Shown piece after piece: positions 12,566 through 31,407 of a stretch of 64,000 nt of DNA. The stretch's first letter is position 1. The number at the start of each line of letters is the position of its first letter. The stretch is from assembly GCA_965248755.1 (NCBI GenBank), contig OZ252149.1:2688001-2752000 (forward strand), written 5' to 3'. The notes below the pieces were generated by a model. That model had not been told where the DNA came from. It did not search any database and was given only the letters and a program-made list of their open reading frames with translations. The stretch is from Candidatus Latescibacterota bacterium (GTDB lineage Bacteria > Latescibacterota > CBDEFO01). Both the position numbers and the translations under genes were made by a program.

Positions 12566-13274
12566 ACATGATACCTTCCTTTTCGGGATATTCGTCAATC
12601 AATACGCCTGTTTTTCTTTCAGGTTCGTGCATATTAATAGATTTTAAAGCGATTTTGGCATAGAATAAAGTTTTGGTATCAAGTCGATATCTCTAATTGA
12701 GCCTGGCTTTACCCTTTTATTTAGGAAGTCTTCAAAAATCTGTGCTGTAGCCCAAACAAGTTGTTGTTGTTCGTCTTGACCAAAAGGTGGGATTTTATTT
12801 CCGTGGATAAAATCACTTCGCAACTTATAATTATTGTAAACTGTCCAAAAAAATCTCTTCTTATCACTTTTAACTACCTTGGCACAAAAAAGAGCAAGTC
12901 GAATTCGAATTTTTGAAGCCCCTAAACCAGCAAGAGCCTCTAAAGCAGATATACAGTCAAGTAGAGAATCTAACGGCTCGCTACGCCGTGGAGCACTCCA
13001 CCACCTTTGAAAAGCAACTTGTATACGCTTTCCTGTCGGGTGAAAAGCCTTACTTATCCAGTCTTCTATCCGAGCTTTCCGATTTTTGGTTAGTGTATAC
13101 CTGGGTCGGCTTTGGATAAGGTTTTGTGAAGTTGATTCTACGGTTTATACTTCGCTCTAGTCTGTATTCCCACCGTCCTAAAATAAGATCCAACATTTGT
13201 GATACAGTCTCTAATTTATTTGCATTACATACCGCTCCCCTTGACAGAGCGACAAATATTTCGCAAATTGGGGT

Positions 13275-13604
13275 TTGAGAAGGGAGGTCAAGGTGTCGAG
13301 CCCCGAAGTGAAAGATGGTAAGCGCTGGACGGCGACCCGTAAGGGAGAGATTGTGTTGGCTCTTTTGAGAGGAGCAGATCTATCTGAGGTGTGTCGTAAG
13401 AATGGAATTAGCCAGTCGCAGGCGTATGCTTGGCGTGATAGTTTCTTAGAAGGGGGCCAGGAGAGTCTGAAGTCTCGGCGTGGTCGCAAGGATCCGAAGG
13501 AGCGAGAGGTTAGCCGGTTGGAGCGCAAGGTAGGGCAGTTGACGCTCCAGTTGGAGATACTCGAAGAGGTAGCCCGTCTAAAAAAAACGAAGCGGTTGCC
13601 TTGA
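13275..13604 (+). CDS. IS3 OrfA (HTH)
   Basis: Identical to 20249-20578. Confidence 0.9.
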   Translation: MRREVKVSSPEVKDGKRWTATRKGEIVLALLRGADLSEVCRKNGISQSQAYAWRDSFLEGGQESLKSRRGRKDPKEREVSRLERKVGQLTLQLEILEEVARLKKTKRLP

Positions 13605-13704
13605 GTGGGCGGTTTTTGGGTCGAGGCTATTCCCGCAAGGTGGTAGCTTTGGCTTTGGGTTTGCATCGTTCGACTCTGTATAGGTTTAGGGATAGAGGTG
13701 TCAG

Positions 13705-13890
13705 CCCGGATTTACCCGGCCAGGAGTAGGACAAAAATGCCTGCATCACCTCTGACGATACCCCCTTAACCCTTCCACCTAACTCCTGATTGTATTTCTC
13801 AATAAAGTAATCGACAAGGAAAAAGGGAAGGTCCTCGATATGCTCGCGTAGCGGCGGCAGGACGATAGGAACGACGTTAAGGCATAAGAA
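13705..13890 (-). pseudogene. Captured fragment of a sigma54-dependent (NtrC-family) activator gene
   Basis: Minus-strand translation LNVVPIVLPPLREHIEDLP..VDYFIEKYNQELG..VKGVS..YSWPG. Confidence 0.85.
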
Positions 13891-15516
13891 CCGACATTCC
13901 CCATATCACATTCATGAGGGATTATATTTCGATACATTCTTGTTTCTGAATTAATATTACCACTTTTACATTTTTCAACAAGTACTTTTTTCAATTAAAA
14001 TAGTATTTTCCTCTGAATTATCACTTTCTTTGTGTTTAAATCCTCCAATTAGAGACACCTCTCCATCGACTCACAAAAAAATGTGGCAGTTTAAACAGAA
14101 TAACATCGCAATCGTTCAATCCGGGATAATATTTCGGCAAATAACCTCTTGTCTATCCCAACCTCAGCCATTTGAAACGTAATATATCCGCTGTGTCTGA
14201 CAATCTTCGCTCCGATTTTGATAAATTTCACGAGGAGGCTGCGTAGTGACCAGTGTTTGATTTTCTTCGGAAGAACAAAACGTCGCAGGAAGTTGCCCAA
14301 GTTGTAAGCCAGAACAAACAGCCAGAGCCTCACCTGATTGGAGACGAAACGCTTGCATGAGAGTCGGGTCCAGTTCAGAGCATACTTGCCCTCCTTAATC
14401 CACTGCTCAGCTCTGCCACGGCCATTGTAGAAGTGTACCACGCCTTCTGGCTTGGCGCTCATGTTGGTCACGATAAATCCCACTCTTGGGAATAACTCCC
14501 CTTGGTGCCATTCAACCTTGGCGACCACTCGCCTCGATTGATCCCAACTGGCCGCTTTATATTGAAATTCATATAACGATACAATCGGTTTCCTCGGCGG
14601 TCGTCCAACTGGCCGAGTCAGCAGGTATCGTATCTTTTCATAGAGTATCTCATTTGCGGGAAGCCGAATGGCATACAAATAGCCGTTTCCCTCCAGATAA
14701 TCATAAATCTCAGGCTTTGCGAATGCAGCATCGCCTCGAAAGTATTTCCTATTCTTCTTGCTCTCGTATCTCTTGACGATCGGTTCCAGAACTTCCTTCC
14801 AACGATCAGCACTGTGAACATTACCAGAGCGAAGTAGGACTCCTTCACAATCCCCGAACTGATTGAAGCAGAACACTGGATGAAAACAGGTACATCCGAA
14901 ATGACCGTTGTAAGCTGATCCTTCCTGCTGGCCATGTACCGGACTCTCCGAACTGTCCATGTCCAGAATGATTCGTTGATGCTGTGTTTTACTCATCGCT
15001 TTTTGAACCCACTTGCCATTGATATCTGACAAGTTTCTGAGATTGTCATGCTGAGTCAGTATATCAGTTTCAAAACGTCCTATCGTGTTGGAGCTGGCAG
15101 CTTGCCTGCCTTTGTCCTTCTTTCCGGTAATCGCTCGCATGACGGGATCAACGGATAATCGCTCGGCGTCATTTACATCTTCATATCCTGCAAGACGGCT
15201 GTATATCGATTGACGCAGGAGAGTAGATATATCATGTTGGATATTACGGCCTGTGCGTTTATCGGTAAAAACCGCTGATACCGAATCAAATAATCCCAGT
15301 GCGTAATCAAGGTCACGATACGCAAGAAGTCCACCGTTTGATGTCACCTTTGCACCATGAAATTCAAGCTTTATTCCTCCATCAAAACCTACTTTCATTC
15401 TTTCACCCTCTGGATGATCAATATTTATCCGCCATTTATGAGTCTTATTTATTGTAATATAACATGTTCTGGCGACTTTGACAACCATTTTTCGGGTCTA
15501 ATATGGCGAATGGGGG
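13891..15516 (-). mobile_element. IS1380-family element copy 1
   Basis: IRs CCCCCATTCGCCATAT / CCGACATTCCCCATAT; appears identical to 23395-25020. Confidence 0.92.
14091..15488 (-). CDS. IS1380-family transposase (DDE_Tnp_1_4)
   Basis: VTSNGGLL, GYEDVND, LDMDS, RGDAAF, YNGRGRAEQWIKEGK motifs. Confidence 0.95.
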   Translation of the reverse strand: MVVKVARTCYITINKTHKWRINIDHPEGERMKVGFDGGIKLEFHGAKVTSNGGLLAYRDLDYALGLFDSVSAVFTDKRTGRNIQHDISTLLRQSIYSRLAGYEDVNDAERLSVDPVMRAITGKKDKGRQAASSNTIGRFETDILTQHDNLRNLSDINGKWVQKAMSKTQHQRIILDMDSSESPVHGQQEGSAYNGHFGCTCFHPVFCFNQFGDCEGVLLRSGNVHSADRWKEVLEPIVKRYESKKNRKYFRGDAAFAKPEIYDYLEGNGYLYAIRLPANEILYEKIRYLLTRPVGRPPRKPIVSLYEFQYKAASWDQSRRVVAKVEWHQGELFPRVGFIVTNMSAKPEGVVHFYNGRGRAEQWIKEGKYALNWTRLSCKRFVSNQVRLWLFVLAYNLGNFLRRFVLPKKIKHWSLRSLLVKFIKIGAKIVRHSGYITFQMAEVGIDKRLFAEILSRIERLRCYSV

Positions 15517-16281
15517 GTCAGTTCTTCTGTTAAAGAGCCTGTGATAGATGAGGAGCTTGCTTTTCGTATTCGAGGGATACTGGACCAAGAAGAGGCATTT
15601 GGTCACAGGCGGGTTTGGGCGCATCTTCGTTTCAAGGAAGGGGAATGTGTCAACGTTAAGAAGGTTCATAGGATAATGAAGCTTAAGGGGTGGCAGTGTA
15701 AGCTGTGGAATCGTCCCGGGAGAAAGGGGCCACAGGTTGCCCAGAAGCGTTCTGTGGTGGATAGTCCCGACAGTTTGTGGTCGAGTGACTTGACAAAGAT
15801 TTACTGTGGAAAAGATGGTTGGTGTCCTCTTATTGCGGTGGTGGACAACGGAAGCCGGGAGGTTCCTGGGTATCGTTTTAGTCGAAAAGGGAGGGCACTG
15901 GAGGCCACAGATGCCCTGGATCGGGCCGTGATCTCTCGATACACTTCCAAGGAGGCTGTCCCCCAGGGTCTCACTTTGCGCTCTGACAATGGTTCCATCT
16001 TTTTGGCTCGGGCCTATTTGGCCAGTACCGAATATTGGGGAATTCGTCAGGAATACATACCAAGTGGTAAACCCGATTGGAACGGTGTTGTAGAGCGTTT
16101 TTTCAGGACCCTCAAGCAAGAGTGTGTTTGGCTTCACAAGTTTGAATCCTTTGAACAGGCTGAGAAGATCATATCTCAGTGGATCGATAATTACAACAAG
16201 AACAGGCTTCATTCATCCCTGGGATATAAGACCCCAAAAGAGTGGAGAAAACAATTTTATCTACTACCCCAGGTTGCTTAA
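15517..16281 (+). pseudogene. IS3 OrfB 3' part (rve DDE), separated from its 5' end
   Basis: WSSDLT, RSDNGS, VERFFRTLKQE. Confidence 0.9.
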
Positions 16282-16606
16282 TTGGTGTCGCTTTCCTGGG
16301 AAGCAGTACAATTATCCCATCCTTAGCAAACTATATTAGTGTATTTACGTCGTTCTGTTTTACCAAACAACTCAAGACTCATACCAGTATCTTCCCAAGA
16401 GGCAGGAAACATATTGCCTTCTGACTCAAACTCCTTTAATTTCGACATAGGAAACGATTCCAAAGTAATACCTTGGGTAAGGTCTTGCGGCCTTGAAGGA
16501 GGCTTTAAATACCAAACCGGATAAATAATCTGATTAGACATATTGGTTGAAAGCATCTTTATGGACAACTTGGGCCAGGACACTATGCCCTGGCCCTGTT
16601 GTCATT

Positions 16607-18520
16607 CTATTCCACAACCTCAAAGTCCGCATCCACAGCGCCACCGTCGTCCTTCTTCTTGCCGGCGGGCTCTTGCCGTTGTTCCTCTTGTCCGTCGCCT
16701 TCGGGCTGGCTCTGATCAGCTGCGGTCTCCTTGTACATCTCGCCTGCCACCTGATGCCAGACCTGATTCAGCGCCTCACTGGCGGAGTTGATCTCGTTTA
16801 CGTCAGATCCCTTGAGAGCCTCCTTAACCCGACCGATAGCGGCTTCGAGCTTCGACTTCGAGTCGGGACTGATCTTGTCCTGCATCTCCTTTAGGCTCTT
16901 TTCCGTCTGATAGACCTGTTGATCGGCCTGATTTCTGGCGTCTATTTCCTCCCTGTGCCTTTTGTCCTCAGACTCGTGCCCTTTGGCATCTGTGACCATC
17001 CTTTCGACCTCAGCCTCCGAAAGCCCTGAGGACGCCTCTATCCTTATGCTCTGCTCCCTTTCCGTGGCTTTATCCTTGGCAGACACATTCAGAATACCGT
17101 TCGCATCTATGTCAAAGGTAACCTCGATCTGAGGCATGCCCCTTGGGGCGGGAGGCATGCCGTCCAGATGAAATCTGCCCAGCGTCCTGTTATCGACCGA
17201 CATCTCGCGCTCACCTTGGAGCACGTGTATCTCCACCGATGTCTGGTTGTCATCTGCTGTGCTGAATATTTGGCTCTTCTTTGTGGGTATCGTCGTATTG
17301 CGCTCGATTAGCTTTGTAGTAACGCGCCCTAACGTCTCAATGCCAAGTGAAAGAGGAATCACATCCAAAAGCAGAACGTCCGTAACGTCTCCAGTGAGCA
17401 CGCCGCCCTGAATGGCAGCCCCTAAGGCTACCACCTCATCAGGATTGACGCCCTTGTGGGGTTCCTTTGCGAAAAGCTCCTTTACAACTTGCTGTACCCT
17501 CGGCATTCTGGTCTGTCCGCCCACTAATATGACCTCATCTATATCGGAGGGCGAAATTTCGGCATCTTCGAGCGCCTGTTGGCAGGGACCCATCGTCCTT
17601 TCTACAAGATCGTCCACCAACTGTTCTAATTTAGCCCTCGTCAAACTTATGGTTAGGTGCTTAGGGCCAGTCTGGTCAGCTGTTATGAACGGCAGATTAA
17701 TGTCTGTCTGCGTTGAGCTGGAGAGCTCACATTTTGCCTTCTCCGCCGCCTCTTTGAGCCTCTGAAGCGCCATGGGGTCTTTTCTGAGGTCGATTCCCTC
17801 CTGCTTCTTAAACTCGTCAGCCAACCAGTTCATGATCTTTTCGTCAAAGTCGTCCCCACCCAGGTGTGTATCTCCGTTCGTAGCTTTGACCTCAAATACG
17901 CCGTCGCCTAATTCCAGTATAGAAATATCGAACGTCCCACCCCCAAGGTCATAGACAGCTATCTTCTCATCCTTTTTCTTATCCAGACCGTAAGCTAAAG
18001 AAGCCGCTGTCGGCTCGTTGATAATCCTTAAGACTTCCAGCCCGGCGACCTTTCCGGAGTCCGTGGTCGCCTGCCTTTGACTGTCGTTGAAATACGCTGG
18101 AACCGTGATTACTGCCTGAGTCACCTTCTCTCCGAGATAGTCCTCAGCCGTCTGCTTCATCTTCTGGAGCACCATAGCCGAAATCTCAGGAGGCGTGTAC
18201 TCTCCGCCTTCAACTTCCACAACCGCTAAATCGTTAGTCCCGCTTTCGACTTTGTAGGGGACCTCCTCTATCTCTGTACCCACTTCGTTATATCTGCGCC
18301 CCATAAAACGCTTTATGGAGTAGATAGTGTTCTTGGGGTTTGTGATAGACTGTCTTTTTGCTACCTGTCCGACAAGGCGTTCTCCCTCCTTTGTGAACGC
18401 CACCACAGAGGGCGTTGTCCTTCCGCCCTCAGAGTTGGGTATCACAACCGGATCTCCGCCCTCCATCACGGCCACACACGAATTGGTCGTCCCTAAATCG
18501 ATTCCTATTACCTTTCCCAT
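16607..18520 (-). CDS. dnaK: Chaperone DnaK (Hsp70)
   Basis: [26 protein letters not shown]-terminal DADFEVV. Confidence 0.98.
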
Positions 18521-18543
18521 TTTGCTATCCTCCTTTTAAACTG

Positions 18544-18816
18544 CTAAGCTGCGTTCTTAGACAAAGATTCATCCTTTGGGGACGATTTGGATTCTGAATT
18601 TTCCTTATCCGCCTTTTCCGCTTTCCTATAACTTTGGCTGCGATAATCAGTGCAGTAAAAACCTGACCCTTTGAACAAAAATCCCGCGCCTGCACCGATT
18701 AAGCGCTTCACCTTTTTGTCGCAAACCGGACATTCCTTAATAGGTTCTTCTGTAATACTCTGAAACCTTTCAAATCTCTTGCCACAGCTTTGACATTCAT
18801 ACTCGTAAGTCGGCAT
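18544..18816 (-). CDS. FmdB-family zinc-ribbon protein
   Basis: MPTYEYECQSC...CPVC...FKGSGFYCTDY. Confidence 0.92.
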   Translation of the reverse strand: MPTYEYECQSCGKRFERFQSITEEPIKECPVCDKKVKRLIGAGAGFLFKGSGFYCTDYRSQSYRKAEKADKENSESKSSPKDESLSKNAA

Positions 18817-18897
18817 ATTTTGAACCTCCTTTAAGAATTCAGATTTGAGAATACACACGTATAGTACGTATACATAATACTATAATACACGATACAC

Positions 18898-18912
18898 GCA
18901 TAAAACGTGCCA
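18898..18912 (-). promoter_or_regulatory. Putative sigma54 (-24/-12) promoter for fmdB-dnaK
   Basis: Minus strand TGGCAC-GTTTT-ATGC; AT-rich tract and palindrome TGTCA-N4-TGACA further upstream. Confidence 0.6.
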
Positions 18913-19244
18913 TTAGATTACAAATACCATTTACTTGCTTTATATCATTTATTTTAAGCATCTTATGTAACAGTGTAAGAAAAAGTTCTGACGTCCCCCT
19001 GCAACTTTCTATCTGCCTATACGACAGAGCCACTGTCATGATGACATATACATTACGTCAGACTATGGCATTTATGTCAAGTCTGAGGGAAGTGGTAGAC
19101 AGGAGAGACTCGACGCTTGCCCTTAAGATGGAGAAGGGTATTCATTATATATGAACTATAGGAATATTAGTTCATCAGTGAGGAAAAGATTTGACTCTGC
19201 AGAATCCCCATTTATATTTATGCATATCAAAAGGAGGATCCACC

Positions 19245-19715
19245 ATGGGATTTGTGAACATAAACACACAGAGGAAGATATTAGATTCAATTCAGTCAGT
19301 CTTGAAGCAGAAACGATGGTCATGGGGTCAATTAGCAAGTGAAGTCGGGATCGCTAAATCGTATATCAGTCAGATCAAGACAGAGACAAATCGTTTGAAC
19401 GTAGAAGTCCTTGAGAAGATAGCAAACGCACTGGAGATTCCTATGGTGTATCTCCTGCCGAAAGCTCCCCTGACCTCTGAAAACCGGAAGCTCATCCTTT
19501 CTCTTTTACAGCTTCCAGACGACATCAGTGATGAGAAACTTCTGAAGATAGCTGAGATAACCAGATTTCTCTCCACCAGGTCACTTCAGCAATTAGATGC
19601 GCTCCTTGCATTTCTCTCTCCATCGCCACACTCAGAAGGCATTTCTGCAGAGGCTGCCGGTTATGCGAAGGTTGCTGAACAACCTGGAAAATACAACAAG
19701 TCCCAGGACTCATAG
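19245..19715 (+). CDS. XRE-family HTH transcriptional regulator
   Basis: AGGAGG RBS; WSWGQLASEVGIAKSYISQIK..LEKIANALEI HTH pattern. Confidence 0.85.
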   Translation: MGFVNINTQRKILDSIQSVLKQKRWSWGQLASEVGIAKSYISQIKTETNRLNVEVLEKIANALEIPMVYLLPKAPLTSENRKLILSLLQLPDDISDEKLLKIAEITRFLSTRSLQQLDALLAFLSPSPHSEGISAEAAGYAKVAEQPGKYNKSQDS

Positions 19716-20248
19716 ACCCATAACGCCCTTATGATCCGCAGGGCTAAACGTACTGGTTCTGAAGGACCCCCGCTCTGAAATCCTCCGCATTCATCGGCAG
19801 AAGCAGTTACTCCTCCGTAATAAGTAAACTTTGATAACTCCTTTATAGTATATCTATGTATAGCCACCGCTTTCAGCCCCGCTGAACACAGACACTCCGC
19901 AGGCGGGGCTTCAAAACGCGCTCTTGGGCAAAGGGGAACAAATCGCCTTTGGAGACCCCACAGTAGAAGCGGATGGCATTCATCCACAGCTAACCAGTGT
20001 TGATATTCTCCAATTATGCTTATGAAGGAGGCTGTTAATTTTTTGCTTCTATCTACATCAGCAACTAATTCATGTACGACGAATATTATTCTTGGTCTTT
20101 CAGTACTTATGAACTATATTTATCAACGAGACAGGCTGAAATGAAGAGTTCAAACTGAGGTTCGCTACTGCAAAGATAAAAGATCTTTGAGATAAGGATA
20201 GCATACCGCTCCCCTTGACAGAGCGACAAATATTTCGCAAATTGGGGT

Positions 20249-20578
20249 TTGAGAAGGGAGGTCAAGGTGTCGAGCCCCGAAGTGAAAGATGGTAAGCGCT
20301 GGACGGCGACCCGTAAGGGAGAGATTGTGTTGGCTCTTTTGAGAGGAGCAGATCTATCTGAGGTGTGTCGTAAGAATGGAATTAGCCAGTCGCAGGCGTA
20401 TGCTTGGCGTGATAGTTTCTTAGAAGGGGGCCAGGAGAGTCTGAAGTCTCGGCGTGGTCGCAAGGATCCGAAGGAGCGAGAGGTTAGCCGGTTGGAGCGC
20501 AAGGTAGGGCAGTTGACGCTCCAGTTGGAGATACTCGAAGAGGTAGCCCGTCTAAAAAAAACGAAGCGGTTGCCTTGA
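20249..20578 (+). CDS. IS3 OrfA
   Basis: HTH_Tnp_1-like; A8 run at 20554-20561 whose -1 frame reads into OrfB (probable programmed frameshift). Confidence 0.9.
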   Translation: MRREVKVSSPEVKDGKRWTATRKGEIVLALLRGADLSEVCRKNGISQSQAYAWRDSFLEGGQESLKSRRGRKDPKEREVSRLERKVGQLTLQLEILEEVARLKKTKRLP

Positions 20579-21438
20579 GTGGGCGGTTTTTGGGTCGAGG
20601 CTATTCCCGCAAGGTGGTAGCTTTGGCTTTGGGTTTGCATCGTTCGACTCTGTATAGGTTTAGGGATAGAGGTGTCAGTTCTTCTGTTAAAGAGCCTGTG
20701 ATAGATGAGGAGCTTGCTTTTCGTATTCGAGGGATACTGGACCAAGAAGAGGCATTTGGTCACAGGCGGGTTTGGGCGCATCTTCGTTTCAAGGAAGGGG
20801 AATGTGTCAACGTTAAGAAGGTTCATAGGATAATGAAGCTTAAGGGGTGGCAGTGTAAGCTGTGGAATCGTCCCGGGAGAAAGGGGCCACAGGTTGCCCA
20901 GAAGCGTTCTGTGGTGGATAGTCCCGACAGTTTGTGGTCGAGTGACTTGACAAAGATTTACTGTGGAAAAGATGGTTGGTGTCCTCTTATTGCGGTGGTG
21001 GACAACGGAAGCCGGGAGGTTCCTGGGTATCGTTTTAGTCGAAAAGGGAGGGCACTGGAGGCCACAGATGCCCTGGATCGGGCCGTGATCTCTCGATACA
21101 CTTCCAAGGAGGCTGTCCCCCAGGGTCTCACTTTGCGCTCTGACAATGGTTCCATCTTTTTGGCTCGGGCCTATTTGGCCAGTACCGAATATTGGGGAAT
21201 TCGTCAGGAATACATACCAAGTGGTAAACCCGATTGGAACGGTGTTGTAGAGCGTTTTTTCAGGACCCTCAAGCAAGAGTGTGTTTGGCTTCACAAGTTT
21301 GAATCCTTTGAACAGGCTGAGAAGATCATATCTCAGTGGATCGATAATTACAACAAGAACAGGCTTCATTCATCCCTGGGATATAAGACCCCAAAAGAGT
21401 GGAGAAAACAATTTTATCTACTACCCCAGGTTGCTTAA
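20575..21438 (+). CDS. IS3 OrfB integrase-core transposase
   Basis: FGHRRV HTH_21-like segment plus DDE motifs. Confidence 0.95.
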   Translation: MSGRFLGRGYSRKVVALALGLHRSTLYRFRDRGVSSSVKEPVIDEELAFRIRGILDQEEAFGHRRVWAHLRFKEGECVNVKKVHRIMKLKGWQCKLWNRPGRKGPQVAQKRSVVDSPDSLWSSDLTKIYCGKDGWCPLIAVVDNGSREVPGYRFSRKGRALEATDALDRAVISRYTSKEAVPQGLTLRSDNGSIFLARAYLASTEYWGIRQEYIPSGKPDWNGVVERFFRTLKQECVWLHKFESFEQAEKIISQWIDNYNKNRLHSSLGYKTPKEWRKQFYLLPQVA

Positions 21439-23394
21439 TTGGTGTCGCTTTCCTGGGAAGCAGTACAATATTTCTTGGGCAGAAAGAATTCTTTTACCGC
21501 CCGGTGAGCACTTCGATAAAGAACAAAAGGTAGTAATAAAATGTTTTGAAACCAAAGATATTCTTGCCTGCCCGGGTAGTGGTAAAACAAAGGCTTTGAT
21601 TGCCAAGTTGTTGATTTTGTCCCGGCAAATGCCTCTTGAAAATAATAGGGGTATTTGCGTATTAACTCACACAAATGTGGCTATAAATGAAATAAAAAGC
21701 CACGCTTACTTTGCTTCTAAAAAGCTCTCTAATTACCCAAATCATTTTGGGACAATTCAAAGTTTCGTGGATAAATATCTTGCGATACCGACGTATATCA
21801 ATCAGTTCAACCGAAGACCATTATTCATAAACAACGAAATTTATCTTGATAGGATGGAAAGAACGAGAAAATATTTAGGTAGAAAAACAAATGCATTTTG
21901 CTATCAGAGCGGTCATAAAGATTTGCCTTATTCACTTAGATTTGAAGATTTTTCCCTGGATGATAATGGTATATGTAAAAGACTTAAATTAGATTCAAAT
22001 GATACAACTCAAAGAGCACACTATGATAGATTGCTAAGACTAAAAGAACGGATACTTTTGGATGGAATACTAAGCTATGATGATGCATATTATATAGCAG
22101 AAAGACACATTGAAAAGCACCCTAATTTGAAAAACGTATTTGCAAAAAGATTTGCCTATGTTTTCATAGATGAAATGCAGGATTCAAGTACAATACAGTC
22201 CGAACTGATGAATAAAATATTCAATGATAATGTTGTTATTCAAAAAATAGGTGATTTAAATCAATCAATATTTGACTATGACCCTAACTTGGAATGCGGT
22301 TGGGCAGTAATTGACGACAGAACTATGTGTATTACAGGTAGTAAAAGATTTTCTAACGCTATAGCAAGCAAGGTTGAAAAACTTTGTGTTTTCCGGCAGA
22401 CAATAACGGGAAATGGCAGGCAAAATGAAATTACTCCTGTTATCATTGTTTATGATGATTATACTATTCAGCAGGTATTAGATAAATTCGGTGAAATAAT
22501 TATCAGAAATAATCTACATCAGAATGAGAAAAGGGTATTTAAAGCAGTTGGATGGCGTGGAAAACCGCATGACACAAAAAGAACTATACCAAGTTATTGG
22601 TGTACTGCTTCCCAGGAAAGCGACACCAATTAAGCAACCTGGGGTAGTAGATAAAATTGTTTTCTCCACTCTTTTGGGGTCTTATATCCCAGGGATGAAT
22701 GAAGCCTGTTCTTGTTGTAATTATCGATCCACTGAGATATGATCTTCTCAGCCTGTTCAAAGGATTCAAACTTGTGAAGCCAAACACACTCTTGCTTGAG
22801 GGTCCTGAAAAAACGCTCTACAACACCGTTCCAATCGGGTTTACCACTTGGTATGTATTCCTGACGAATTCCCCAATATTCGGTACTGGCCAAATAGGCC
22901 CGAGCCAAAAAGATGGAACCATTGTCAGAGCGCAAAGTGAGACCCTGGGGGACAGCCTCCTTGGAAGTGTATCGAGAGATCACGGCCCGATCCAGGGCAT
23001 CTGTGGCCTCCAGTGCCCTCCCTTTTCGACTAAAACGATACCCAGGAACCTCCCGGCTTCCGTTGTCCACCACCGCAATAAGAGGACACCAACCATCTTT
23101 TCCACAGTAAATCTTTGTCAAGTCACTCGACCACAAACTGTCGGGACTATCCACCACAGAACGCTTCTGGGCAACCTGTGGCCCCTTTCTCCCGGGACGA
23201 TTCCACAGCTTACACTGCCACCCCTTAAGCTTCATTATCCTATGAACCTTCTTAACGTTGACACATTCCCCTTCCTTGAAACGAAGATGCGCCCAAACCC
23301 GCCTGTGACCAAATGCCTCTTCTTGGTCCAGTATCCCTCGAATACGAAAAGCAAGCTCCTCATCTATCACAGGCTCTTTAACAGAAGAACTGAC

Positions 23395-25020
23395 CCCCCA
23401 TTCGCCATATTAGACCCGAAAAATGGTTGTCAAAGTCGCCAGAACATGTTATATTACAATAAATAAGACTCATAAATGGCGGATAAATATTGATCATCCA
23501 GAGGGTGAAAGAATGAAAGTAGGTTTTGATGGAGGAATAAAGCTTGAATTTCATGGTGCAAAGGTGACATCAAACGGTGGACTTCTTGCGTATCGTGACC
23601 TTGATTACGCACTGGGATTATTTGATTCGGTATCAGCGGTTTTTACCGATAAACGCACAGGCCGTAATATCCAACATGATATATCTACTCTCCTGCGTCA
23701 ATCGATATACAGCCGTCTTGCAGGATATGAAGATGTAAATGACGCCGAGCGATTATCCGTTGATCCCGTCATGCGAGCGATTACCGGAAAGAAGGACAAA
23801 GGCAGGCAAGCTGCCAGCTCCAACACGATAGGACGTTTTGAAACTGATATACTGACTCAGCATGACAATCTCAGAAACTTGTCAGATATCAATGGCAAGT
23901 GGGTTCAAAAAGCGATGAGTAAAACACAGCATCAACGAATCATTCTGGACATGGACAGTTCGGAGAGTCCGGTACATGGCCAGCAGGAAGGATCAGCTTA
24001 CAACGGTCATTTCGGATGTACCTGTTTTCATCCAGTGTTCTGCTTCAATCAGTTCGGGGATTGTGAAGGAGTCCTACTTCGCTCTGGTAATGTTCACAGT
24101 GCTGATCGTTGGAAGGAAGTTCTGGAACCGATCGTCAAGAGATACGAGAGCAAGAAGAATAGGAAATACTTTCGAGGCGATGCTGCATTCGCAAAGCCTG
24201 AGATTTATGATTATCTGGAGGGAAACGGCTATTTGTATGCCATTCGGCTTCCCGCAAATGAGATACTCTATGAAAAGATACGATACCTGCTGACTCGGCC
24301 AGTTGGACGACCGCCGAGGAAACCGATTGTATCGTTATATGAATTTCAATATAAAGCGGCCAGTTGGGATCAATCGAGGCGAGTGGTCGCCAAGGTTGAA
24401 TGGCACCAAGGGGAGTTATTCCCAAGAGTGGGATTTATCGTGACCAACATGAGCGCCAAGCCAGAAGGCGTGGTACACTTCTACAATGGCCGTGGCAGAG
24501 CTGAGCAGTGGATTAAGGAGGGCAAGTATGCTCTGAACTGGACCCGACTCTCATGCAAGCGTTTCGTCTCCAATCAGGTGAGGCTCTGGCTGTTTGTTCT
24601 GGCTTACAACTTGGGCAACTTCCTGCGACGTTTTGTTCTTCCGAAGAAAATCAAACACTGGTCACTACGCAGCCTCCTCGTGAAATTTATCAAAATCGGA
24701 GCGAAGATTGTCAGACACAGCGGATATATTACGTTTCAAATGGCTGAGGTTGGGATAGACAAGAGGTTATTTGCCGAAATATTATCCCGGATTGAACGAT
24801 TGCGATGTTATTCTGTTTAAACTGCCACATTTTTTTGTGAGTCGATGGAGAGGTGTCTCTAATTGGAGGATTTAAACACAAAGAAAGTGATAATTCAGAG
24901 GAAAATACTATTTTAATTGAAAAAAGTACTTGTTGAAAAATGTAAAAGTGGTAATATTAATTCAGAAACAAGAATGTATCGAAATATAATCCCTCATGAA
25001 TGTGATATGGGGAATGTCGG
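23395..25020 (+). mobile_element. IS1380-family element copy 2
   Basis: IRL CCCCCATTCGCCATAT at 23395; IRR ...ATATGGGGAATGTCGG ending 25020. Confidence 0.92.
23423..24820 (+). CDS. IS1380-family transposase
   Basis: Protein identical to 14091-15488. Confidence 0.95.
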   Translation: MVVKVARTCYITINKTHKWRINIDHPEGERMKVGFDGGIKLEFHGAKVTSNGGLLAYRDLDYALGLFDSVSAVFTDKRTGRNIQHDISTLLRQSIYSRLAGYEDVNDAERLSVDPVMRAITGKKDKGRQAASSNTIGRFETDILTQHDNLRNLSDINGKWVQKAMSKTQHQRIILDMDSSESPVHGQQEGSAYNGHFGCTCFHPVFCFNQFGDCEGVLLRSGNVHSADRWKEVLEPIVKRYESKKNRKYFRGDAAFAKPEIYDYLEGNGYLYAIRLPANEILYEKIRYLLTRPVGRPPRKPIVSLYEFQYKAASWDQSRRVVAKVEWHQGELFPRVGFIVTNMSAKPEGVVHFYNGRGRAEQWIKEGKYALNWTRLSCKRFVSNQVRLWLFVLAYNLGNFLRRFVLPKKIKHWSLRSLLVKFIKIGAKIVRHSGYITFQMAEVGIDKRLFAEILSRIERLRCYSV

Positions 25021-25580
25021 ATAAGTACGAGAAAAAGGTCTCAGCTCAGATTTCTGCTCAACAGGAAGCATTAATGGCGGTGGCTACTGCTCGGGCCAAA
25101 GCGCAGCAGGCCGAGCAGGAAAAGCTGACTAAAGAGGCCGTAGGTAAAGCCAATGTCATTAAAGCCCAGTACGAAAAGGAGGAGGAGAAGATTCGTGCTG
25201 TGGTTGAAGCCCTGCAGGAAAAAGAGGTCGCCGAATTGCGAGCCCAACAGGAGCTTGAGGTAGCCAAGCTGCAGCGGCAGGCCGCAGAACTCCAAAAGCA
25301 GCGCGAAATCCTGCTGGGCCAGGGCGAAGCCGAACGCAAAAGGCTGATAATGAAGGCAGACGGCTCCTTAAAGATAAAGCTTGAGACTTACGAAAAGGTG
25401 ATGAAGTTTTGGGCTGATGCTTATGCAAAACGTCAGGTTCCGCAGCTGGTTATGGGTGGTTCTGGCGGTGCTAGTGGCACCGATCAATCCACTCTAAATT
25501 TCAATTCGGCCATGCAACTTTTGGTGGCAAAACAGCTTGGTCTAGACCTCAACGTGCCCAGAGGGACTGCTGGGAGGTAA
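25021..25580 (+). pseudogene. 3' fragment of a coiled-coil (SPFH/flotillin-like) protein gene
   Basis: Ala/Glu/Lys/Gln-rich coiled coil ending VPQLVMGG; begins abruptly at the IS1380 end. Confidence 0.55.
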
Positions 25581-25593
25581 GGGGTGTGAGATC

Positions 25594-25659
25594 CAGCCTC
25601 TCTTCAAGCGGGCACTGACAATCAGTAAGAAGGTCCTCGGTCTAGACCATCCTAACGTG
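25594..25659 (+). pseudogene. Kinesin-light-chain-type TPR fragment
   Basis: [22 protein letters not shown]. Confidence 0.7.
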
Positions 25660-25684
25660 AAAGTCCTTCGATATGCACTTGAGG

Positions 25685-26082
25685 ACGTCGAAGGGAAACG
25701 CAGGACGGTCTGCGTATCCTCTCAGGTCGGGTGTGCTCTGGGATGCACCTTCTGTTCGACCGCAAGGATGGGGCTGATACGGAACCTCTCTGCCGCAGAG
25801 ATTATAGATCAGCTCATATCCGTCAGGAGACATCATAAGCAGATAGACGACGGCATCACCAACGTGGTGATGATGGGTATGGGAGAGCCGCTCCTGAACT
25901 ACAAAAACGTGGTCAGGGCCATAAGGCTCATGGGTCTGGAGATGGGACTCGGGATCGGCGCTCGCAAGATAACCGTCTCCACGGCAGGATTTGTGCCCGG
26001 CATAGATCGGCTCAGAGATATCTCCGCCGCCTGCGGTCAGCTTATAACACCGGTCCCCAGGCAGGGGGCTGTCATATTTTAA
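25685..26082 (+). pseudogene. rlmN: rlmN (23S rRNA methyltransferase) fragment with internal deletion
   Basis: [30 protein letters not shown] joined almost directly to DISAACGQL. Confidence 0.9.
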
Positions 26083-26208
26083 GTGTCATATACGTGAGCA
26101 CAGAGAGATGTTAGAGCGGATAGAAGATGTGGAAAACCTGGAGATGTTTGAGGAGATGAGAAAGAAGTCCCCTCAATTTCAGGAAGCGCAACAATTTCAT
26201 GAATTAAT

Positions 26209-26234
26209 GTCATTCCCGTGGAAACGGGAATCCA
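26209..26234. repeat. REP-like palindrome GTCATTCCCGTGGAAACGGGAATCC
   Basis: Hairpin ATTCCCGT/ACGGGAAT with GTC leader. Confidence 0.6.
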
Positions 26235-26277
26235 GGGATGCCATGAAACCCTATTACTTGCTAGTTAGCAAATGCGG

Positions 26278-27629
26278 CTGAGTATCTGTTGTTAAAGGCA
26301 GTGGATGAACTGATAGCTTCGAATAAAAATATAAATTTCAAATCAATCTATAACTGGATTTTAAATTACCAACCTTTTTCAAGGGAAAGGGACTGGAAGG
26401 CATCTGCTTTAAATGTTTTATACAAAGTAACTACAGGATCAACAGGCGAGGTTCTGAATTCTGATAGGACAATTGAGATTGAGAAACTTACAGAGAAGCA
26501 GGTTGTATTGGAAATCGGAAGTGTAGGGAGTCAACAGGATAAAAGCTTTTTTGTTCAGACTTTACTTTTAAGGATCTACAGACATTTTTTAAAATTAGGA
26601 AGTTCTAAAGATTTGAGGTTCTCTATCGTTTTGGAAGAAGCACATAATCTCCTTCTAAAACATAAAATAGGTTATGAAAGTGTAACTGAATTAGTCTTAC
26701 GACAGATAAGGGAGTTGGGAGTTGGCTGTATTATAGCAGATCAGCATCCACATTTGATGACACTGCCGGCTATAGCAAACTATGCAACTATATGTATGAA
26801 TTTGAAGACTGAGGAAGATGTTAGGACAATGGCAAATGCTATGCTCTTGGATAAGGAGAGGGATTACATAGGCAGACTTCCTGTAGGATGGGGTATCATA
26901 AAGCTTCAGGATAGATTTTTGAAGCCTTTCTTGGTTAGATTTCCTGAATGTAAGATGGGAGATGGGAAGGTTCCATCTTCATTAAGTGATTTCACAGATT
27001 TCAGTCTTAAGACAGCTGGAGCTGCTGGAAATACAGGGATTTGGCATAGAGATAAACTTAGCAGGAGAGAGAAGGTATTTTTGACAGATATTTTCAAGCA
27101 TCCAGAATCCTATGTTATTGAGAGATATAAAAGGTTAGAGGTAAATCCAAGGGCTGGCAATCAGTGTTTAAAAGATTTGGAGGAGAGGGGATTCATCAAG
27201 CCTGTGTATGTAAGAGTTAAAAGAGGGAAGGTGAAGCTGTTTGACCTCACGGCCCTTGGGAGAGAGTATCTTAAAAAGCTTGGGTATAGAGCATCTAACA
27301 GAAGTGGTGGGGCAGAGCATAAGTTCTGGCAGAGGAAAGTGATGGAGCATTACATTGCAAAGGGTTATAAAGTTTATCCTGAATATTCTGTTGGGGCTGG
27401 GAAGAAGGTTGATGTTGTTGCTGTCAAGGATGGAAGGAAAATAGCGATTGAGATTGAGACCGGGAAATCTGATGCTGTCTCTAATATCGTAAAATGTGTA
27501 AAGGCTGGATTTGAACAGGTAATATCTGTTGCCGTATCCAAAAGACTTAAAGAGGATATAGAAAAAAGCTTAAAAGGGAAAATCGTGGATAAAGTAAAAG
27601 TGGTCTGTTTAAAACGGATTGATCTGTGA
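26278..27629 (+). pseudogene. 5'-truncated HerA/VirB4-like ATPase fused to wHTH and PD-(D/E)XK nuclease domain
   Basis: Walker B IVLEEAH, RQIRELGVG..ADQHP; no Walker A; C-terminal VDVVA..IAIEIETG. Confidence 0.7.
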
Positions 27630-27901
27630 TGGGATGGAACATGTCTTGCGCATTTGGATGGATAATAATGAAGGTGCAAAGTTTCGCCTGTTTTTTCCAA
27701 AACCTTGAAACTACTCTGGATCTCAGTGCATCGGACCAGTTGAAATCGAAAGAATTAAATACCTGGAATCACAACCTTTAAAACAGGAGTAAACTTCATT
27801 CTCTTTTATTACCCTTCAAGCCAGTAGCCCTCCGGTGGCTCTTTGTCTTCAAGGGTAACTTAGGGGGAACTTTTAAATAGAAGCTATACTTTCCCAATTG
27901 T

Positions 27902-29113
27902 ATGAAGCAAACAATTATAGATATCCATAACTTTGCACAAAAAGAACAGACAGCCAGAAAACATTTACTTGAAGCAGAAATATCTAATAGAAGTAAGGAA
28001 CTGATTTTAGAGTTCATAGATGACCTGGAATGCAGTGGAATGGGAAAAGCAAGAATTGTAAAGACAATTTCTATGGTGAAGAATATTGCAATGAAATTGA
28101 AAAAGGGGTTTCCATCAGCAGATGAAAATGATCTGAAGAAGTTTGTGAAGTCGATTCAAAACAATGGTTTTTATTCTGCCTGGACAAAGCAGGATTACAA
28201 CAAGGCGTTGAAGAAATTCTACAGGTGGCTCATAGGGAAAGGTTACACAAAAGTTGATGTTGAGTGGATACCAATAACGATGAAGTCAAAGGATAAGCCA
28301 AAACTCAAAAGAAGTGAGCTTCTAACAGAAGAGGAAGCGCATAAGGTTGTGGAGGAATGTGAGAATGCAAGGGACAAGGCATTGATATCCTTGATATGGG
28401 ATACTGGTGCAAGGATAGGAGAGATAGGTTCTATGACGATTGGCAGCGTACATTTTGAAGATGGTGGAACACTTGTGGATCTTAAAGGCAAGACAGGAAG
28501 CAGGACAGTTTTTGTTATTGAGAGCACACCACATCTGTTGACATGGCTCAAGCTTCACCCCTTCAAGGACGATCCAAAGACTCCCCTGTGGGTGACCATG
28601 GGACAGGATAGGATACACAAATATAAGCCGTTAAGATACCGGACATTCTACAAAATATTTGAGAGGTCTTTCAAAAAAGCTGGAATAAGGAAATCCTGGA
28701 ACCCGCATCTGTACAGACATTCTCGGGCTTTATGGTGTGTGCTGAATAACTGGAACACTATTATGGCCAACAAGTTCTTTGGCTGGGCAGACAACAGCAA
28801 TATGTATTCTTACTACGTATCTTTGGCTAATGAAGATGTGAAAGAGAAGATGATGCAGAGCTATGGGATAAGCACGAAGAAGGAAGATGAACTGGAAAAG
28901 AGAAAGCCGAAAATATGTGCCAGATGTGAGGCTTTGAATCAGCCCAAAGTGAAATTCTGCTATAGATGTGGTATGGCGATAGATCTAAAGACTGTGTTGA
29001 GCTTAGACGAGCAACGGAAGGCTTCTGATGAACTGATGAACGCACTTGTGAAAGATCCTGAAGTTCAGAGGATTCTTGTCAACAAGATCAGGGAAATGAG
29101 ACTAAGGGTGTAA
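27902..29113 (+). CDS. Tyrosine recombinase/integrase with C-terminal zinc ribbon (archaeal type)
   Basis: TGARIGE (R), KGKTG (K), PHLYRHS (HxxR), GW...YV (Y); CARC...CYRC. Confidence 0.9.
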   Translation: MKQTIIDIHNFAQKEQTARKHLLEAEISNRSKELILEFIDDLECSGMGKARIVKTISMVKNIAMKLKKGFPSADENDLKKFVKSIQNNGFYSAWTKQDYNKALKKFYRWLIGKGYTKVDVEWIPITMKSKDKPKLKRSELLTEEEAHKVVEECENARDKALISLIWDTGARIGEIGSMTIGSVHFEDGGTLVDLKGKTGSRTVFVIESTPHLLTWLKLHPFKDDPKTPLWVTMGQDRIHKYKPLRYRTFYKIFERSFKKAGIRKSWNPHLYRHSRALWCVLNNWNTIMANKFFGWADNSNMYSYYVSLANEDVKEKMMQSYGISTKKEDELEKRKPKICARCEALNQPKVKFCYRCGMAIDLKTVLSLDEQRKASDELMNALVKDPEVQRILVNKIREMRLRV

Positions 29114-29274
29114 TCTAGTATTCACATTTTCTGAGTCTTACTGTTTTTGACCTTTTGACCCTGCCGGCTTTTTGTAAAGAACCCATCGTTTCTTTGTCCC
29201 TCCCCATTTCACGCCCCAATTCATACCCAACTACGTGGAAAGTTGTTATATACTTCTGGCTCTCACCTCCTTTT

Positions 29275-29382
29275 ATGGCATCAGAAAAAGAGAAGGAGAT
29301 ATTCAGCCACCTTCCGGAGTGGATGAAGATATTAAACGATATGACCAAGGAGATTGAAGAACAAGAATCTGAAAAGTACTAA
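29275..29382 (+). CDS. Small hypothetical protein
   Basis: MASEKEKEIFSHLPEW...; TATA-like box about 23 nt upstream. Confidence 0.4.
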   Translation: MASEKEKEIFSHLPEWMKILNDMTKEIEEQESEKY

Positions 29383-29493
29383 AATGCTCTTATATCCTAA
29401 ATTTCAGGGGAATTGTAAATCGAACTTCTATGGAAAGCCTTTTGAAGCTATTGATTATCTTTCTCTTAGTTTATACAACGCAGGAGTGATAAA

Positions 29494-29682
29494 ATGACAA
29501 AAGTAATTGACCCAAACTTTGAAACCTTTGGATGGAAAACCCATGTTAGAGAAAGAAGAGGTTCGTTTAAGATTACTATAAACAATCTGATAGCTGTGGG
29601 GGCAGGACTGAAACACGGACAGCCCCTGTACTGCTATGTTGCCAAAGATAAGGATGGCAGGACCTTAATTGTAATATATCCG
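29494..29682 (+). pseudogene. Small AbrB-like hypothetical gene truncated at the transposition-unit end
   Basis: GGAGTGA RBS; GSFKITI..GLKHGQ..LIVIY then runs into IS3 sequence. Confidence 0.45.
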
Positions 29683-29782
29683 CTGACACCTCTATCCCTA
29701 AACCTATACAGAGTCGAACGATGCAAACCCAAAGCCAAAGCTACCACCTTGCGGGAATAGCCTCGACCCAAAAACCGCCCAC

Positions 29783-30112
29783 TCAAGGCAACCGCTTCGT
29801 TTTTTTTAGACGGGCTACCTCTTCGAGTATCTCCAACTGGAGCGTCAACTGCCCTACCTTGCGCTCCAACCGGCTAACCTCTCGCTCCTTCGGATCCTTG
29901 CGACCACGCCGAGACTTCAGACTCTCCTGGCCCCCTTCTAAGAAACTATCACGCCAAGCATACGCCTGCGACTGGCTAATTCCATTCTTACGACACACCT
30001 CAGATAGATCTGCTCCTCTCAAAAGAGCCAACACAATCTCTCCCTTACGGGTCGCCGTCCAGCGCTTACCATCTTTCACTTCGGGGCTCGACACCTTGAC
30101 CTCCCTTCTCAA
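29783..30112 (-). CDS. IS3 OrfA
   Basis: Identical to other copies. Confidence 0.9.
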   Translation of the reverse strand: MRREVKVSSPEVKDGKRWTATRKGEIVLALLRGADLSEVCRKNGISQSQAYAWRDSFLEGGQESLKSRRGRKDPKEREVSRLERKVGQLTLQLEILEEVARLKKTKRLP

Positions 30113-30987
30113 ACCCCAATTTGCGAAATATTTGTCGCTCTGTCAAGGGGAGCGGTATGTTGGGACGGCTACTCCAAAGAAATAAAAGTTAAAAAAACTG
30201 AATTTAGTAATCTAAAAAGTTATTTAGCTCCACAATCTGATAGTTTTATTTCATCTAATGGAGTTAATTTTTACAAGAAGAGGTTAGGGGAAGCTTTCTT
30301 AAAGTGCTTAAGAATTGCAGGAGTAACTGACGATGGAAGGGCATTCACAGAGAAAAAACTGCATAAATATATATCAGAAAAAAACTCGGATTTTTACCAG
30401 GATTTTAGGGTAAGGCTCGCCAATTGGTGTTTGAAGATACACAGGCAAGAAGAAGTTTTTGAAGAAATAAAACATTATCTAACCAATGAATTTAAGGAGT
30501 TTTTTAATTATCAGGTGAATGTTGAACTTACAATCTTTATAAATTCATCAGATTTGGAAGCGGATGATGAAGAAACCCATTCGAGCAATAACATCTACAA
30601 ATATTCTTCTGGAACAACTGATATCGACATAGAAGTTTCAACTATTCATGGTGTCAAAGGCGAAACCCATACGGCAACATGTTACCTTGAAACTTTCTTT
30701 TATGACTATGACATTAAGCGAATAATAAATTATATAAAGGGAGAGCATACTAAGCCAAAAGAAAGAGTAATTCAAAATCTAAAAATGGCTTTTGTAGGGA
30801 TGTCACGTCCATCTCGTCTCCTTTGCATTGCGGTTCATAAGGATAGTATTACCGGACAAGAAGAAGCACTGCAGAGAAGTGGTTGGGATGTTAATAAGGA
30901 ATTGTTAGCAGGTAGTAATAACTGAAACAAGAAGGCTATTTATAATCGAAGATAGGTGCGATAATCGAAGATGGGTGGTTGCCATAT

Positions 30988-31407
30988 CATACCGTTCCCC
31001 TTCACAGAACGACAGATATTCTGTAAATCGGGGTTCGCGAAGGGCAAGATGTCAGCGCCAGAGCAGAAGACGGCTAGCGCTGGACAACGGTTCGATCTTT
31101 CTTTCTAGATCCTATTTGGTAAGTACCGAATATTAGGGGTTTGTCAAGAATATGTTCCGAGCGGAAAGGCCGATTGGAACGGTGTTGTAGAGCGTTTTTT
31201 CAGGACCCTCAAGCAAGAGTGTGTTTGACTTCACAGCTTCGAATCCTTTGAGCAAGCTGAGAAGATCATATCTCAGTGGATCGATAATTACGACAAGAAC
31301 CGTCTTCATTCATCCCTGGGATACAAGACCCTGCAAGAATGGAGAAAACAATAATATCTGCTACCCCAAGTTGCTTAATCGGTGTCGCTTTCCAGGGGGG
31401 CAGTACA
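30988..31407 (+). mobile_element. Diverged, internally deleted IS3 derivative (MITE-like, about 420 bp)
   Basis: Ends CATACCGTTCCCC / GGGGCAGTACA; orfA start fused to the DNGS region of orfB. Confidence 0.85.

What the first reader, a model, noticed from the sequence alone, without database searches (positions are those of the whole stretch)
13700..29687. IS1380 inserted twice at the identical base of an IS3 element, each time with different cargo
Seen: the intact IS3 (copy 2) reads GAGGT-GTCAG-TTCT. Copies 1 and 3 are both opened there with a 5-bp duplication (GTCAG at 13700-13704 and 15517-15521; CTGAC at 23390-23394 and 29683-29687), in the same relative orientation. The DNA between the IS1380 right IR and the TSD differs completely (186 bp vs 4662 bp). 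Known: the IS1380-family element ISEcp1 mobilises flanking DNA using surrogate right ends and makes 5-bp TSDs. Inference: simple duplication of one composite cannot give two different cargos ending at the same junction. This implies repeated targeting of, or cargo exchange at, one site in another IS, giving a two-tier gene-capture vehicle that the intact IS3 could move in trans.
Basis: partly seen in the sequence, partly recalled or inferred. Interest (0 to 1): 0.82.

Follow-up and report, generated by a model that had tools for sequence, protein, structure and literature searches.

The report
Two IS1380 cargo modules inside IS3
A jumping gene that habitually drags neighbouring DNA along landed twice at the same favoured spot of another, very abundant jumping gene, each time with different cargo; this is most likely a known kind of element meeting a target present in many copies, though a swap of cargo at an already occupied spot is not excluded.

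Summary
The genome holds 47 near-identical copies of this IS1380 and 71 IS3-type copies; only these two IS3s are interrupted. The IS1380 behaves like ISEcp1/ISPme1: 25 of 47 copies carry 58-5734 bp of captured 3' flank inside a 5-bp duplication. Both cargos come from other loci: the 186-bp unit is a common module (8 copies), the 4662-bp unit a one-off capture from a donor 1.4 Mb away. Both right junctions fit the surrogate-end pattern, so two transposase events hit this base. A target model built without these two sites ranks the base 3rd-5th of 2492 in the IS3, so repeated insertion at a good 71-copy target is the best reading (0.55). That model makes the double hit within 20 kb a roughly 0.1% event, so copying of the composite plus cargo exchange at the resident end stays open (0.27); 0 of 9 donor records show an exchange. 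A vehicle moved in trans is not shown: copy 3 was probably hit in place. Similar nesting and same-site/different-size units have been reported.

The parts
13228..13704 (+). IS3 copy 1, left half with orfA (13275-13604); host duplication ATTA at 13224-13227
   Evidence: identical to copy 2; HTH_Tnp_1/HTH_28
13700..13704 (+). 5-bp target duplication GTCAG, right joint of the 186-bp module
   Evidence: junction unique in genome
13705..13890 (-). 186-bp cargo: 3' flank of the founder copy at genome 755330, ending in the best-scoring surrogate right end; same unit with its own 5-bp duplication at 8 loci
13891..15516 (-). IS1380 (1626 bp, 16-bp IRs matching 13/16); transposase 14091-15398 (435 aa from the ATG at element position 119)
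   Evidence: PF13701 and NF033539 above cut-off; IRs
13921..13950 (-). outward promoter-like site TTCAGA-18-TATAAT inside the right end, facing clpB 1.3 kb away (consensus match only)
   Evidence: 13 sites found against 9.0 in shuffles, so not significant by count
15517..16310 (+). second GTCAG (15517-15521) and right half of IS3 copy 1; host duplication ATTA at 16311-16314
20202..21467 (+). intact IS3 copy 2 (orfA 20249-20578, orfB 20575-21438; target at 20674-20678); left end of a UvrD-carrying composite and a rearrangement breakpoint
   Evidence: NF033516 above cut-off for orfB
21468..22600 (+). left part of the composite's cargo (UvrD-like helicase fragment), ending in TTGG
   Evidence: PF00580; multi-copy
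22601..23394 (-). right half of IS3 copy 3, with duplication CTGAC at 23390-23394
23395..25020 (+). IS1380, identical to the copy in IS3 copy 1; transposase 23513-24820
25021..26278 (+). first 1258 bp of the 4662-bp cargo: earlier capture shared by 4 copies (3' part of an interrupted gene, rlmN fragment), ending at an IR-like surrogate end
26279..29682 (+). remaining 3404 bp of the cargo: island DNA from genome 1268640-1272043 (446-aa ORF without family hit above cut-off, tyrosine recombinase 27902-29113); donor runs on past the end without a duplication
29683..30159 (-). duplication CTGAC (29683-29687) and left half of IS3 copy 3; host duplication TTGG at 30160-30163
30164..31407 (+). right part of the UvrD composite, closing with an 86%-identical IS3-like right end

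Best explanation
Two separate transpositions of an ISEcp1-like IS1380 hit the same preferred base in two of 71 copies of an IS3. The transposase always uses the true left IR and pairs it with the true right IR or with a downstream look-alike (C-rich, A at position 6, T at 7), carrying the DNA between as cargo and duplicating 5 bp of target (shown by genome-wide anatomy). One event used the common 186-bp module; the other started from the copy at genome 1274927 and ended at a look-alike 4662 bp downstream (donors shown; order of events unknown). The shared base follows from a weak, roughly symmetric target preference multiplied by copy number (model-based inference). The closeness of the two hosts is taken as coincidence, helped by clustering of IS3 copies and by a rearrangement at copy 2 that joined two formerly distant regions (breakpoint shown; its timing relative to the insertions is not).
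For: Target model trained on the other 38 sites ranks this base 3rd (oriented) or 5th (symmetric) of 2492, above 79-87% of the leave-one-out true sites, 1st in the observed orientation, bootstrap median rank 5, 5-95% range 1-48. The 21-bp site is present in 69 of 69 intact copies. Both right ends fit the surrogate model (186: top of about 6000 candidates; 4662: 20th of 7999). The IS3 flanks do not resemble an IS1380 end (scores -3.7 and -6.6). 0 of 47 loci lie within 300 bp of another unit's end. 0 of 9 donor sites recorded in daughters changed their right end, and 0 of 7 other insertions into repeated hosts were copied with the host. Intact IS3 at copy 3's exact site at genome 1577301 and 1580059. 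In same-genus genome G001 the DNA left of copy 2 and right of 31407 lie 1.3 Mb apart. ISEcp1 units of different size at one base with one duplication are tabulated in PMC7527135 Table S1.
Against: Given the first hit, the model gives only 1.5-9% for a second hit at this base in any copy and 0.04-0.25% in one of the two copies within 20 kb. The 5-bp duplication has 2 A/T, while all 38 others have 3-5. The IS1380 does not hop locally (16 donor-daughter distances 183 kb-2.1 Mb), so nothing in this model explains the proximity. Recombination among repeats is demonstrably active here, which favours the rival. The model rests on 38 sites. In the published case all 16 same-site isolates are one sequence type and right ends are not listed, so internal rearrangement could explain the sizes.
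Confidence: 0.55

Rival explanations
1. One insertion, then copying, then cargo exchange. The first IS3::module composite was copied to a neighbouring position (gene conversion between the inverted IS3 copies, or a short hop driven by IS3 transposase in trans). A second module then inserted directly beside the resident right end, re-using GTCAG as its duplication, and recombination between the two directly repeated IS1380s removed the old cargo.
For: Explains same base, same orientation and proximity at once. Exchange between repeats is frequent here: IS1380 allele G121C is discordant with cargo lineage in 4 of 8 multi-member families and C854T occurs in 3 lineages; 2 of 69 IS3 copies are clean mosaics of two variants; three target duplications are split between distant clusters. 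IS3 copies cluster (72% have a neighbour within 20 kb against 47% uniform) and its transposase has moved larger units with 4-bp duplications (3 cases). Insertion next to a resident IR is established for IS30 and IS911 (PMC9333248).
Against: No tandem or end-adjacent IS1380 insertion among 47 loci (such tandems may resolve quickly). 0 of 9 donor records show a changed end and 0 of 7 other insertions were copied with their host; these small numbers only bound the rates at roughly 30%. IR-targeting by an IS1380-family element did not appear in the listings of nine paper searches. Needs two further steps, one unproven.
Confidence: 0.27
2. Transposase-catalysed end swap or single-end transfer: a surrogate right end from elsewhere attacks the bond between the resident right end and GTCAG (or refills an excision gap), and recombination through the IS1380 body completes the replacement after the composite had been copied.
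For: Gives an exact duplication without a tandem intermediate; allele-cargo discordance shows left and right parts of units have different histories; single-strand transfer with branch migration is described for IS30 IR-targeting.
Against: No reciprocal product identified; 0 of 9 donor records changed; plain gene conversion explains the allele pattern; the chemistry of IS1380 transposases is unknown (PMC9330008).
Confidence: 0.08
3. Dedicated targeting: the IS1380 is adapted to insert in this IS3 and uses it as a second-tier carrier.
For: Site ranks first in its orientation; IS3 ends of both composites are intact; IS3 transposase moves larger units.
Against: 45 of 47 copies lie elsewhere; 69 of 71 IS3 copies are intact; 2 hits against 0.5-1.2 expected; no composite has a twin; two metagenome scans gave 0 and 3 matches, the 3 unrelated to the IS3.
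Confidence: 0.05
4. Assembly artefact or merged strain variants.
For: Highly repetitive region; the contig has an untrimmed 7206-bp terminal overlap with 1 mismatch and 6 gaps; contamination estimate 4.76%.
Against: Both right joints are unique sequences with exact 5-bp duplications at model-conforming surrogate ends, which repeat collapse does not create; each is under 500 bp from a distinguishing flank; both hosts keep matching 4-bp duplications. Merged variants would still need two joints at one base.
Confidence: 0.05

Closest known systems
ISEcp1 (ISEc9) transposition units, IS1380 family
   Same: True left IR plus variable imperfect right end, 5-bp (sometimes 4-6) duplication, AT-rich targets, outward promoter near the right end, re-transposition from a chromosomal copy with extra flank (passages of PMC12589106, PMC12116815, PMC9330008, bioRxiv 2022.03.05.483147). 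Same base with units of different size: PMC7527135 Table S1 lists 16 isolates with duplication AATTA and 10 size values, and a 3128/3144-bp pair at another site.
   Different: Different IR sequence and host; cargo is chromosomal scrap, not resistance genes; 47 copies in one chromosome leave a readable genealogy; here the two right ends at the shared base are shown to differ, which the published table does not show. I did not align the transposase to ISEcp1's.
Transposable modules (TMos) of ISPme1 and IS1247a in Paracoccus
   Same: Single IS1380-family copy moving adjacent 3' DNA of variable length by end misrecognition; a replicative route was suggested for ISPme1 (PMC9330008 section 7.3 passages). 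IS1247 has 16/13 IRs and 5-bp repeats (PMC3281130 table passage), as here.
   Different: Those were trapped experimentally; here inferred from one genome. The primary ISPme1 paper was not held.
Mosaic element ISPmar4 (ISAs1 family) carrying an IS1247a-driven TMo (Szuplewska and Bartosik 2009)
   Different: Host is IS3 here, there are two such mosaics at one base with different cargo, and movement of the whole is not shown.
IS30 / IS911 IR-targeting and dimer dissolution
   Same: Would supply the cargo-exchange route of the main rival (PMC9333248 passages).
   Different: Different families using joined-end circles; no joined-end junction or end-adjacent insertion found for this IS1380.

Membership tests
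IS1380 family | Single DDE transposase of the IS1380 type | tested here: met
   NF033539 385.8 bits (cut-off 180), PF13701 428.9 bits over profile 5-434 of 435
IS1380 family | About 1.6-1.7 kb, short imperfect terminal IRs | tested here: met
   1626 bp; 16-bp IRs matching at 13; IS1247 is 1672 bp, 16/13
IS1380 family | 4-5 bp target duplication | tested here: met
   40 of 47 loci 5 bp, one 6 bp, one 4 bp, one imperfect, 4 unresolved
ISEcp1-type TPU / TMo | True left IR used with variable surrogate right ends, capturing 3' flank | tested here: met
   Duplication abuts the left IR in 40 of 40 resolved loci; 25 carry cargo, 18 distinct surrogate ends, A at position 6 in 17 of 18 and T at 7 in 14 of 18
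ISEcp1-type TPU / TMo | Outward promoter at the right end driving captured genes | tested here: inconclusive
   10/12 consensus match at 13950-13921; no expression data
ISEcp1-type TPU / TMo | Mobilisation of the module shown experimentally | not testable with these tools
   genomic record only
IS3 family (host) | orfA (HTH) and overlapping orfB (rve integrase), 3-5 bp duplication | tested here: met
   NF033516 208 bits for orfB (cut-off 160), HTH for orfA; 4-bp duplications at most copies
IS3 family (host) | Ends 5'-TG...CA-3' (recalled) | tested here: not met
   Right end conforms; left end begins CA in 69 of 71 listed copies, yet the element is recently active. Lowers 'typical IS3', not the family call from the proteins
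Two-tier carrier (nested module moved by host IS in trans) | Same nested composite found at more than one site with its own host duplication | tested here: not met
   each right junction occurs once; copy 3's host site also exists with an intact IS3
IR-targeting elements (IS30/IS911 type) | Insertions abutting resident ends or joined-end junctions | tested here: inconclusive
   0 among 47 loci, 0 of 9 donor records changed; tandems could be short-lived

The most novel reading that the evidence does not exclude
IS1380-family modules can replace the cargo at an occupied site: an incoming module is steered to the resident (surrogate) right end, re-uses the old target duplication and is resolved through the IS body, so a site once hit becomes a re-loadable slot. 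Nested in a 71-copy IS3 that spreads by conversion or in-trans hops, this would be a cassette-like exchange system, and same-site/different-size ISEcp1 resistance units now read as independent hot-spot events could be exchanges.
Probability: 0.27. Interest if true: 0.65.

Novelty: new member of a known kind. Interest (0 to 1): 0.33.

Why it matters
On the best reading it is an ordinary consequence of a known element type. The genome is still useful: 47 copies give a target consensus, 18 natural surrogate ends, a donor-daughter genealogy in which 11 donors still carry their IS, and a start-codon-less allele. [quoted passage not shown] Donor retention fits a copying route but also cut-and-paste with sister repair. 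If the exchange reading were true it would add a missing reaction to that family and change how shared insertion sites are used to count independent events.

Tried and rejected
Read check: contigs of runs X7, X8, X11, X1 (4 of 11 listed) laid on 12800-20150. No listed piece bridges the inner junctions (403 pieces and 50 loose ends not shown); pieces at the outer IS3 junctions overlap by only 27-28 letters, below the tool's 31; the joint skipping 13699-15517 reflects the intact IS3 copies. Loose ends match two other 186-bp loci, but X7/X8 may be the source sample. Metagenome scans for the junctions: 0 matches and 3 chance matches without IS3 homology beyond the motif. Relatives: 3 of 20 other genomes had any IS1380 match, none a full near-identical copy, so no second example. 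Idea that the IS3 flank mimics an IS1380 end: rejected. Idea that one cargo derives from the other by deletion or microhomology: rejected, no shared sequence and both ends sit exactly at the duplication. Net inversion between copies 1 and 3: rejected, both host duplications match. Local hopping of the IS1380: rejected. Four loci (genome 834366, 1274927, 3782900, 3959959) have no confirmed duplication and were left out of the target model, with the 4-bp, 6-bp and imperfect cases; G001 comparisons suggested an adjacent deletion at 3959959 and did not resolve the others. The 48th BLAST hit is the terminal overlap and was dropped. Selection for the outward promoter re-driving clpB was considered; only a consensus match supports it. 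Bartosik 2008 not held; supplements of the bioRxiv preprints could not be seen and may list ISEcp1 sites with right ends.
Full report
Observation. Self-comparison of the window and exact checks confirm every coordinate. Three IS3 copies lie at 13228-16310, 20202-21467 and 22601-30159 (reverse). Copies 1 and 3 are opened at GTCAG by an identical 1626-bp IS1380 in the same relative orientation, followed by 186 or 4662 bp of unrelated DNA. The proteins pass the curated cut-offs for IS1380 and IS3 transposases. Each host keeps its own 4-bp duplication, so there was no net inversion between them.

Genome context. The window is G000:C1:2688001-2752000. The genome holds 48 full-length hits of the IS1380, 47 loci after dropping the contig's terminal overlap, and 71 IS3-type copies, of which only these two are interrupted by it. 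Of the 47 loci, 40 have a 5-bp duplication (15 directly at the right IR, 25 after 58-5734 bp of cargo), one a 6-bp, one a 4-bp, one an imperfect one, and 4 are unresolved. In 40 of 40 resolved loci the duplication abuts the true left IR. The 18 distinct surrogate right ends are C-rich at positions 1-3 with A at 6 (17 of 18) and T at 7 (14 of 18), as in both true IRs. Shared downstream sequence links daughters to donors; 11 donors still carry their IS (read), and 16 traced donor-daughter distances are 183 kb to 2.1 Mb. This is the behaviour described for ISEcp1 transposition units and ISPme1 modules (passages).

Origin of the two cargos. The 186 bp are the 3' flank of a founder at genome 755330; the same unit has its own duplication at 8 loci and is contained in 4 more. 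The 4662 bp match the flank of the copy at 1274927, which runs on past that point without a duplication, so copy 3's unit is a one-off capture from it; its first 1258 bp are an older capture shared by 4 copies. Leave-one-out scoring puts the 186 end at the top of about 6000 candidates and the 4662 end 20th of 7999.

Why the same base. A position-weight model from the other 38 sites shows a weak, nearly symmetric preference. Although this duplication is the least AT-rich of all (2 A/T against 3-5), its flanks fit well: the base ranks 3rd or 5th of 2492 oriented positions in the IS3, first in the observed orientation, bootstrap range 1-48, and the 21-bp site is in 69 of 69 intact copies. IS3 is not enriched as a target: 0.5-1.2 hits are expected and 2 seen. 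The four hits in other repeats of three or more copies suggest about two-fold enrichment of repeated DNA; at that level a same-base pair is expected 0.03-0.05 times per genome for any repeat and 0.004-0.008 for IS3. Given the first hit, a second at this base has 1.5-9% in any copy and 0.04-0.25% in a copy within 20 kb. That is small, but the finding was selected from a very large scan for being such a coincidence, and real hot spots can be sharper than a 38-site model (inference).

Proximity. Copy 2, the UvrD fragment and the IS3-like end at 31407 form a composite that the IS3 transposase has moved with 4-bp duplications. An intact IS3 sits at copy 3's exact TTGG site in two other copies of this composite (genome 1577301, 1580059), so copy 3 most simply received its module in place. 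In the same-genus genome G001 (96-97% identical here) the DNA left of copy 2 and right of 31407 are 1.3 Mb apart, and three duplications (ATAG, TGTT, CTAA) are split among clusters at 1.64, 2.43 and 2.71 Mb. The two hosts thus became neighbours through a rearrangement, before or after the insertions; I cannot order these.

The rival. Copying of one composite, then replacement of its cargo through insertion beside the resident end and recombination through the IS body, would explain base, orientation and proximity together. The genome recombines its repeats often: allele G121C disagrees with cargo lineage in 4 of 8 families, C854T occurs in 3 lineages, 2 of 69 IS3 copies are mosaics, and IS3 copies cluster (72% against 47%). 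Insertion next to a resident IR is known for IS30 and IS911 (PMC9333248 passages). Against it: no end-adjacent insertion among 47 loci, 0 of 9 donor sites recorded in daughters changed their right end, and 0 of 7 other insertions into repeated hosts were copied with the host. These counts are small, so the rival is bounded, not excluded. My weighing (inference) is 0.55 independent, 0.27 copy plus end-adjacent exchange, 0.08 direct end swap, 0.05 dedicated targeting, 0.05 artefact.

The two-tier vehicle. Both composites have intact IS3 ends and the IS3 enzyme moves larger units, so movement in trans is plausible, but each right junction is unique, so it is not shown. The layout itself has a precedent in the title of Szuplewska and Bartosik 2009 (ISPmar4 carrying an IS1247a module; seen only in reference lists).

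Literature. Seen as passages: PMC12589106, bioRxiv 616961 (33), PMC5371602, PMC3281130, PMC12116815, PMC9330008, bioRxiv 2026.10.07.757360 (62), bioRxiv 2022.03.05.483147 (64), PMC9333248. PMC7527135 was seen as passages, section 9 and Table S1: 16 isolates of one sequence type share one base and duplication with 10 size values, which the authors read as independent events at a hot spot; right ends are not listed. Nine searches (listings only) showed no paper on cargo exchange or IR-targeting by IS1380 elements; most subscription papers and preprint supplements are outside the library.

Independent checks failed to add data: contigs of four runs did not show the inner junctions among the listed pieces, metagenome scans gave nothing relevant, and no relative holds a full near-identical IS1380. 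The phylum label Latescibacterota comes from an earlier scan note and was not checked.

Verdict. Real, and mostly explained by known biology: a new ISEcp1-like member with an unusually complete natural record, and one double hit that is probably chance on a preferred multi-copy target, with a testable alternative.

Noticed in passing
window 23513-23515 and 15396-15398 (IS1380 positions 119-121): The likely transposase start is the ATG at 119 (435 aa fits the Pfam profile end to end). Allele G121C removes it in 10 of 47 copies, including three founders whose daughters mostly carry the intact ATG.
   Followed up: partly
window 20202-20209 and all IS3 copies: The IS3's left end begins CA rather than TG in 69 of 71 listed copies although it is recently active; the copy at genome 2434658 has a TG-type left end that looks like a fusion of right and left end sequence.
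   Followed up: no
window 20202-31407: IS3 + UvrD-like gene + partial IS3-like right end forms a composite transposon with many nested and rearranged copies (genome 0.86, 1.28, 1.57-1.65, 2.43, 3.66, 4.06 Mb); it marks large rearrangement breakpoints relative to G001.
   Followed up: partly
window 12599-13227 and 16311-16606: An AT-rich gene of about 950 bp sits between dnaK and clpB, absent at that place in G001, and is interrupted by IS3 copy 1; an RxxxxH motif suggests a HEPN-like protein by eye, with no Pfam or NCBIfam hit.
   Followed up: partly
window 13921-13950: The IS1380's outward promoter-like site in copy 1 faces clpB, which the IS3 separated from dnaK; it could restore clpB transcription and have been selected. 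Untested.
   Followed up: no
genome 4018319 and 4082061 (outside window): Two clean single-crossover mosaics between the main IS3 and its 91% variant, both without target duplication.
   Followed up: yes
genome 3746991-3751933 (outside window): An IS1380 inserted (4-bp duplication) inside the cargo of another module that keeps its own 5-bp duplication.
   Followed up: yes
window 5401-9877 (repeat at 5935-7200): Large surface-type ORF with tandem Ig-like (ASH/HYDIN) domains followed by a FlgD-Ig/Por-tail ORF.
   Followed up: no
window 46431-47338 and 53082-54010: A 0.9-kb direct repeat at 93% identity.
   Followed up: no
G000 contig ends: The contig carries an untrimmed 7206-bp terminal overlap, so one IS1380 locus is present twice.
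   Followed up: yes
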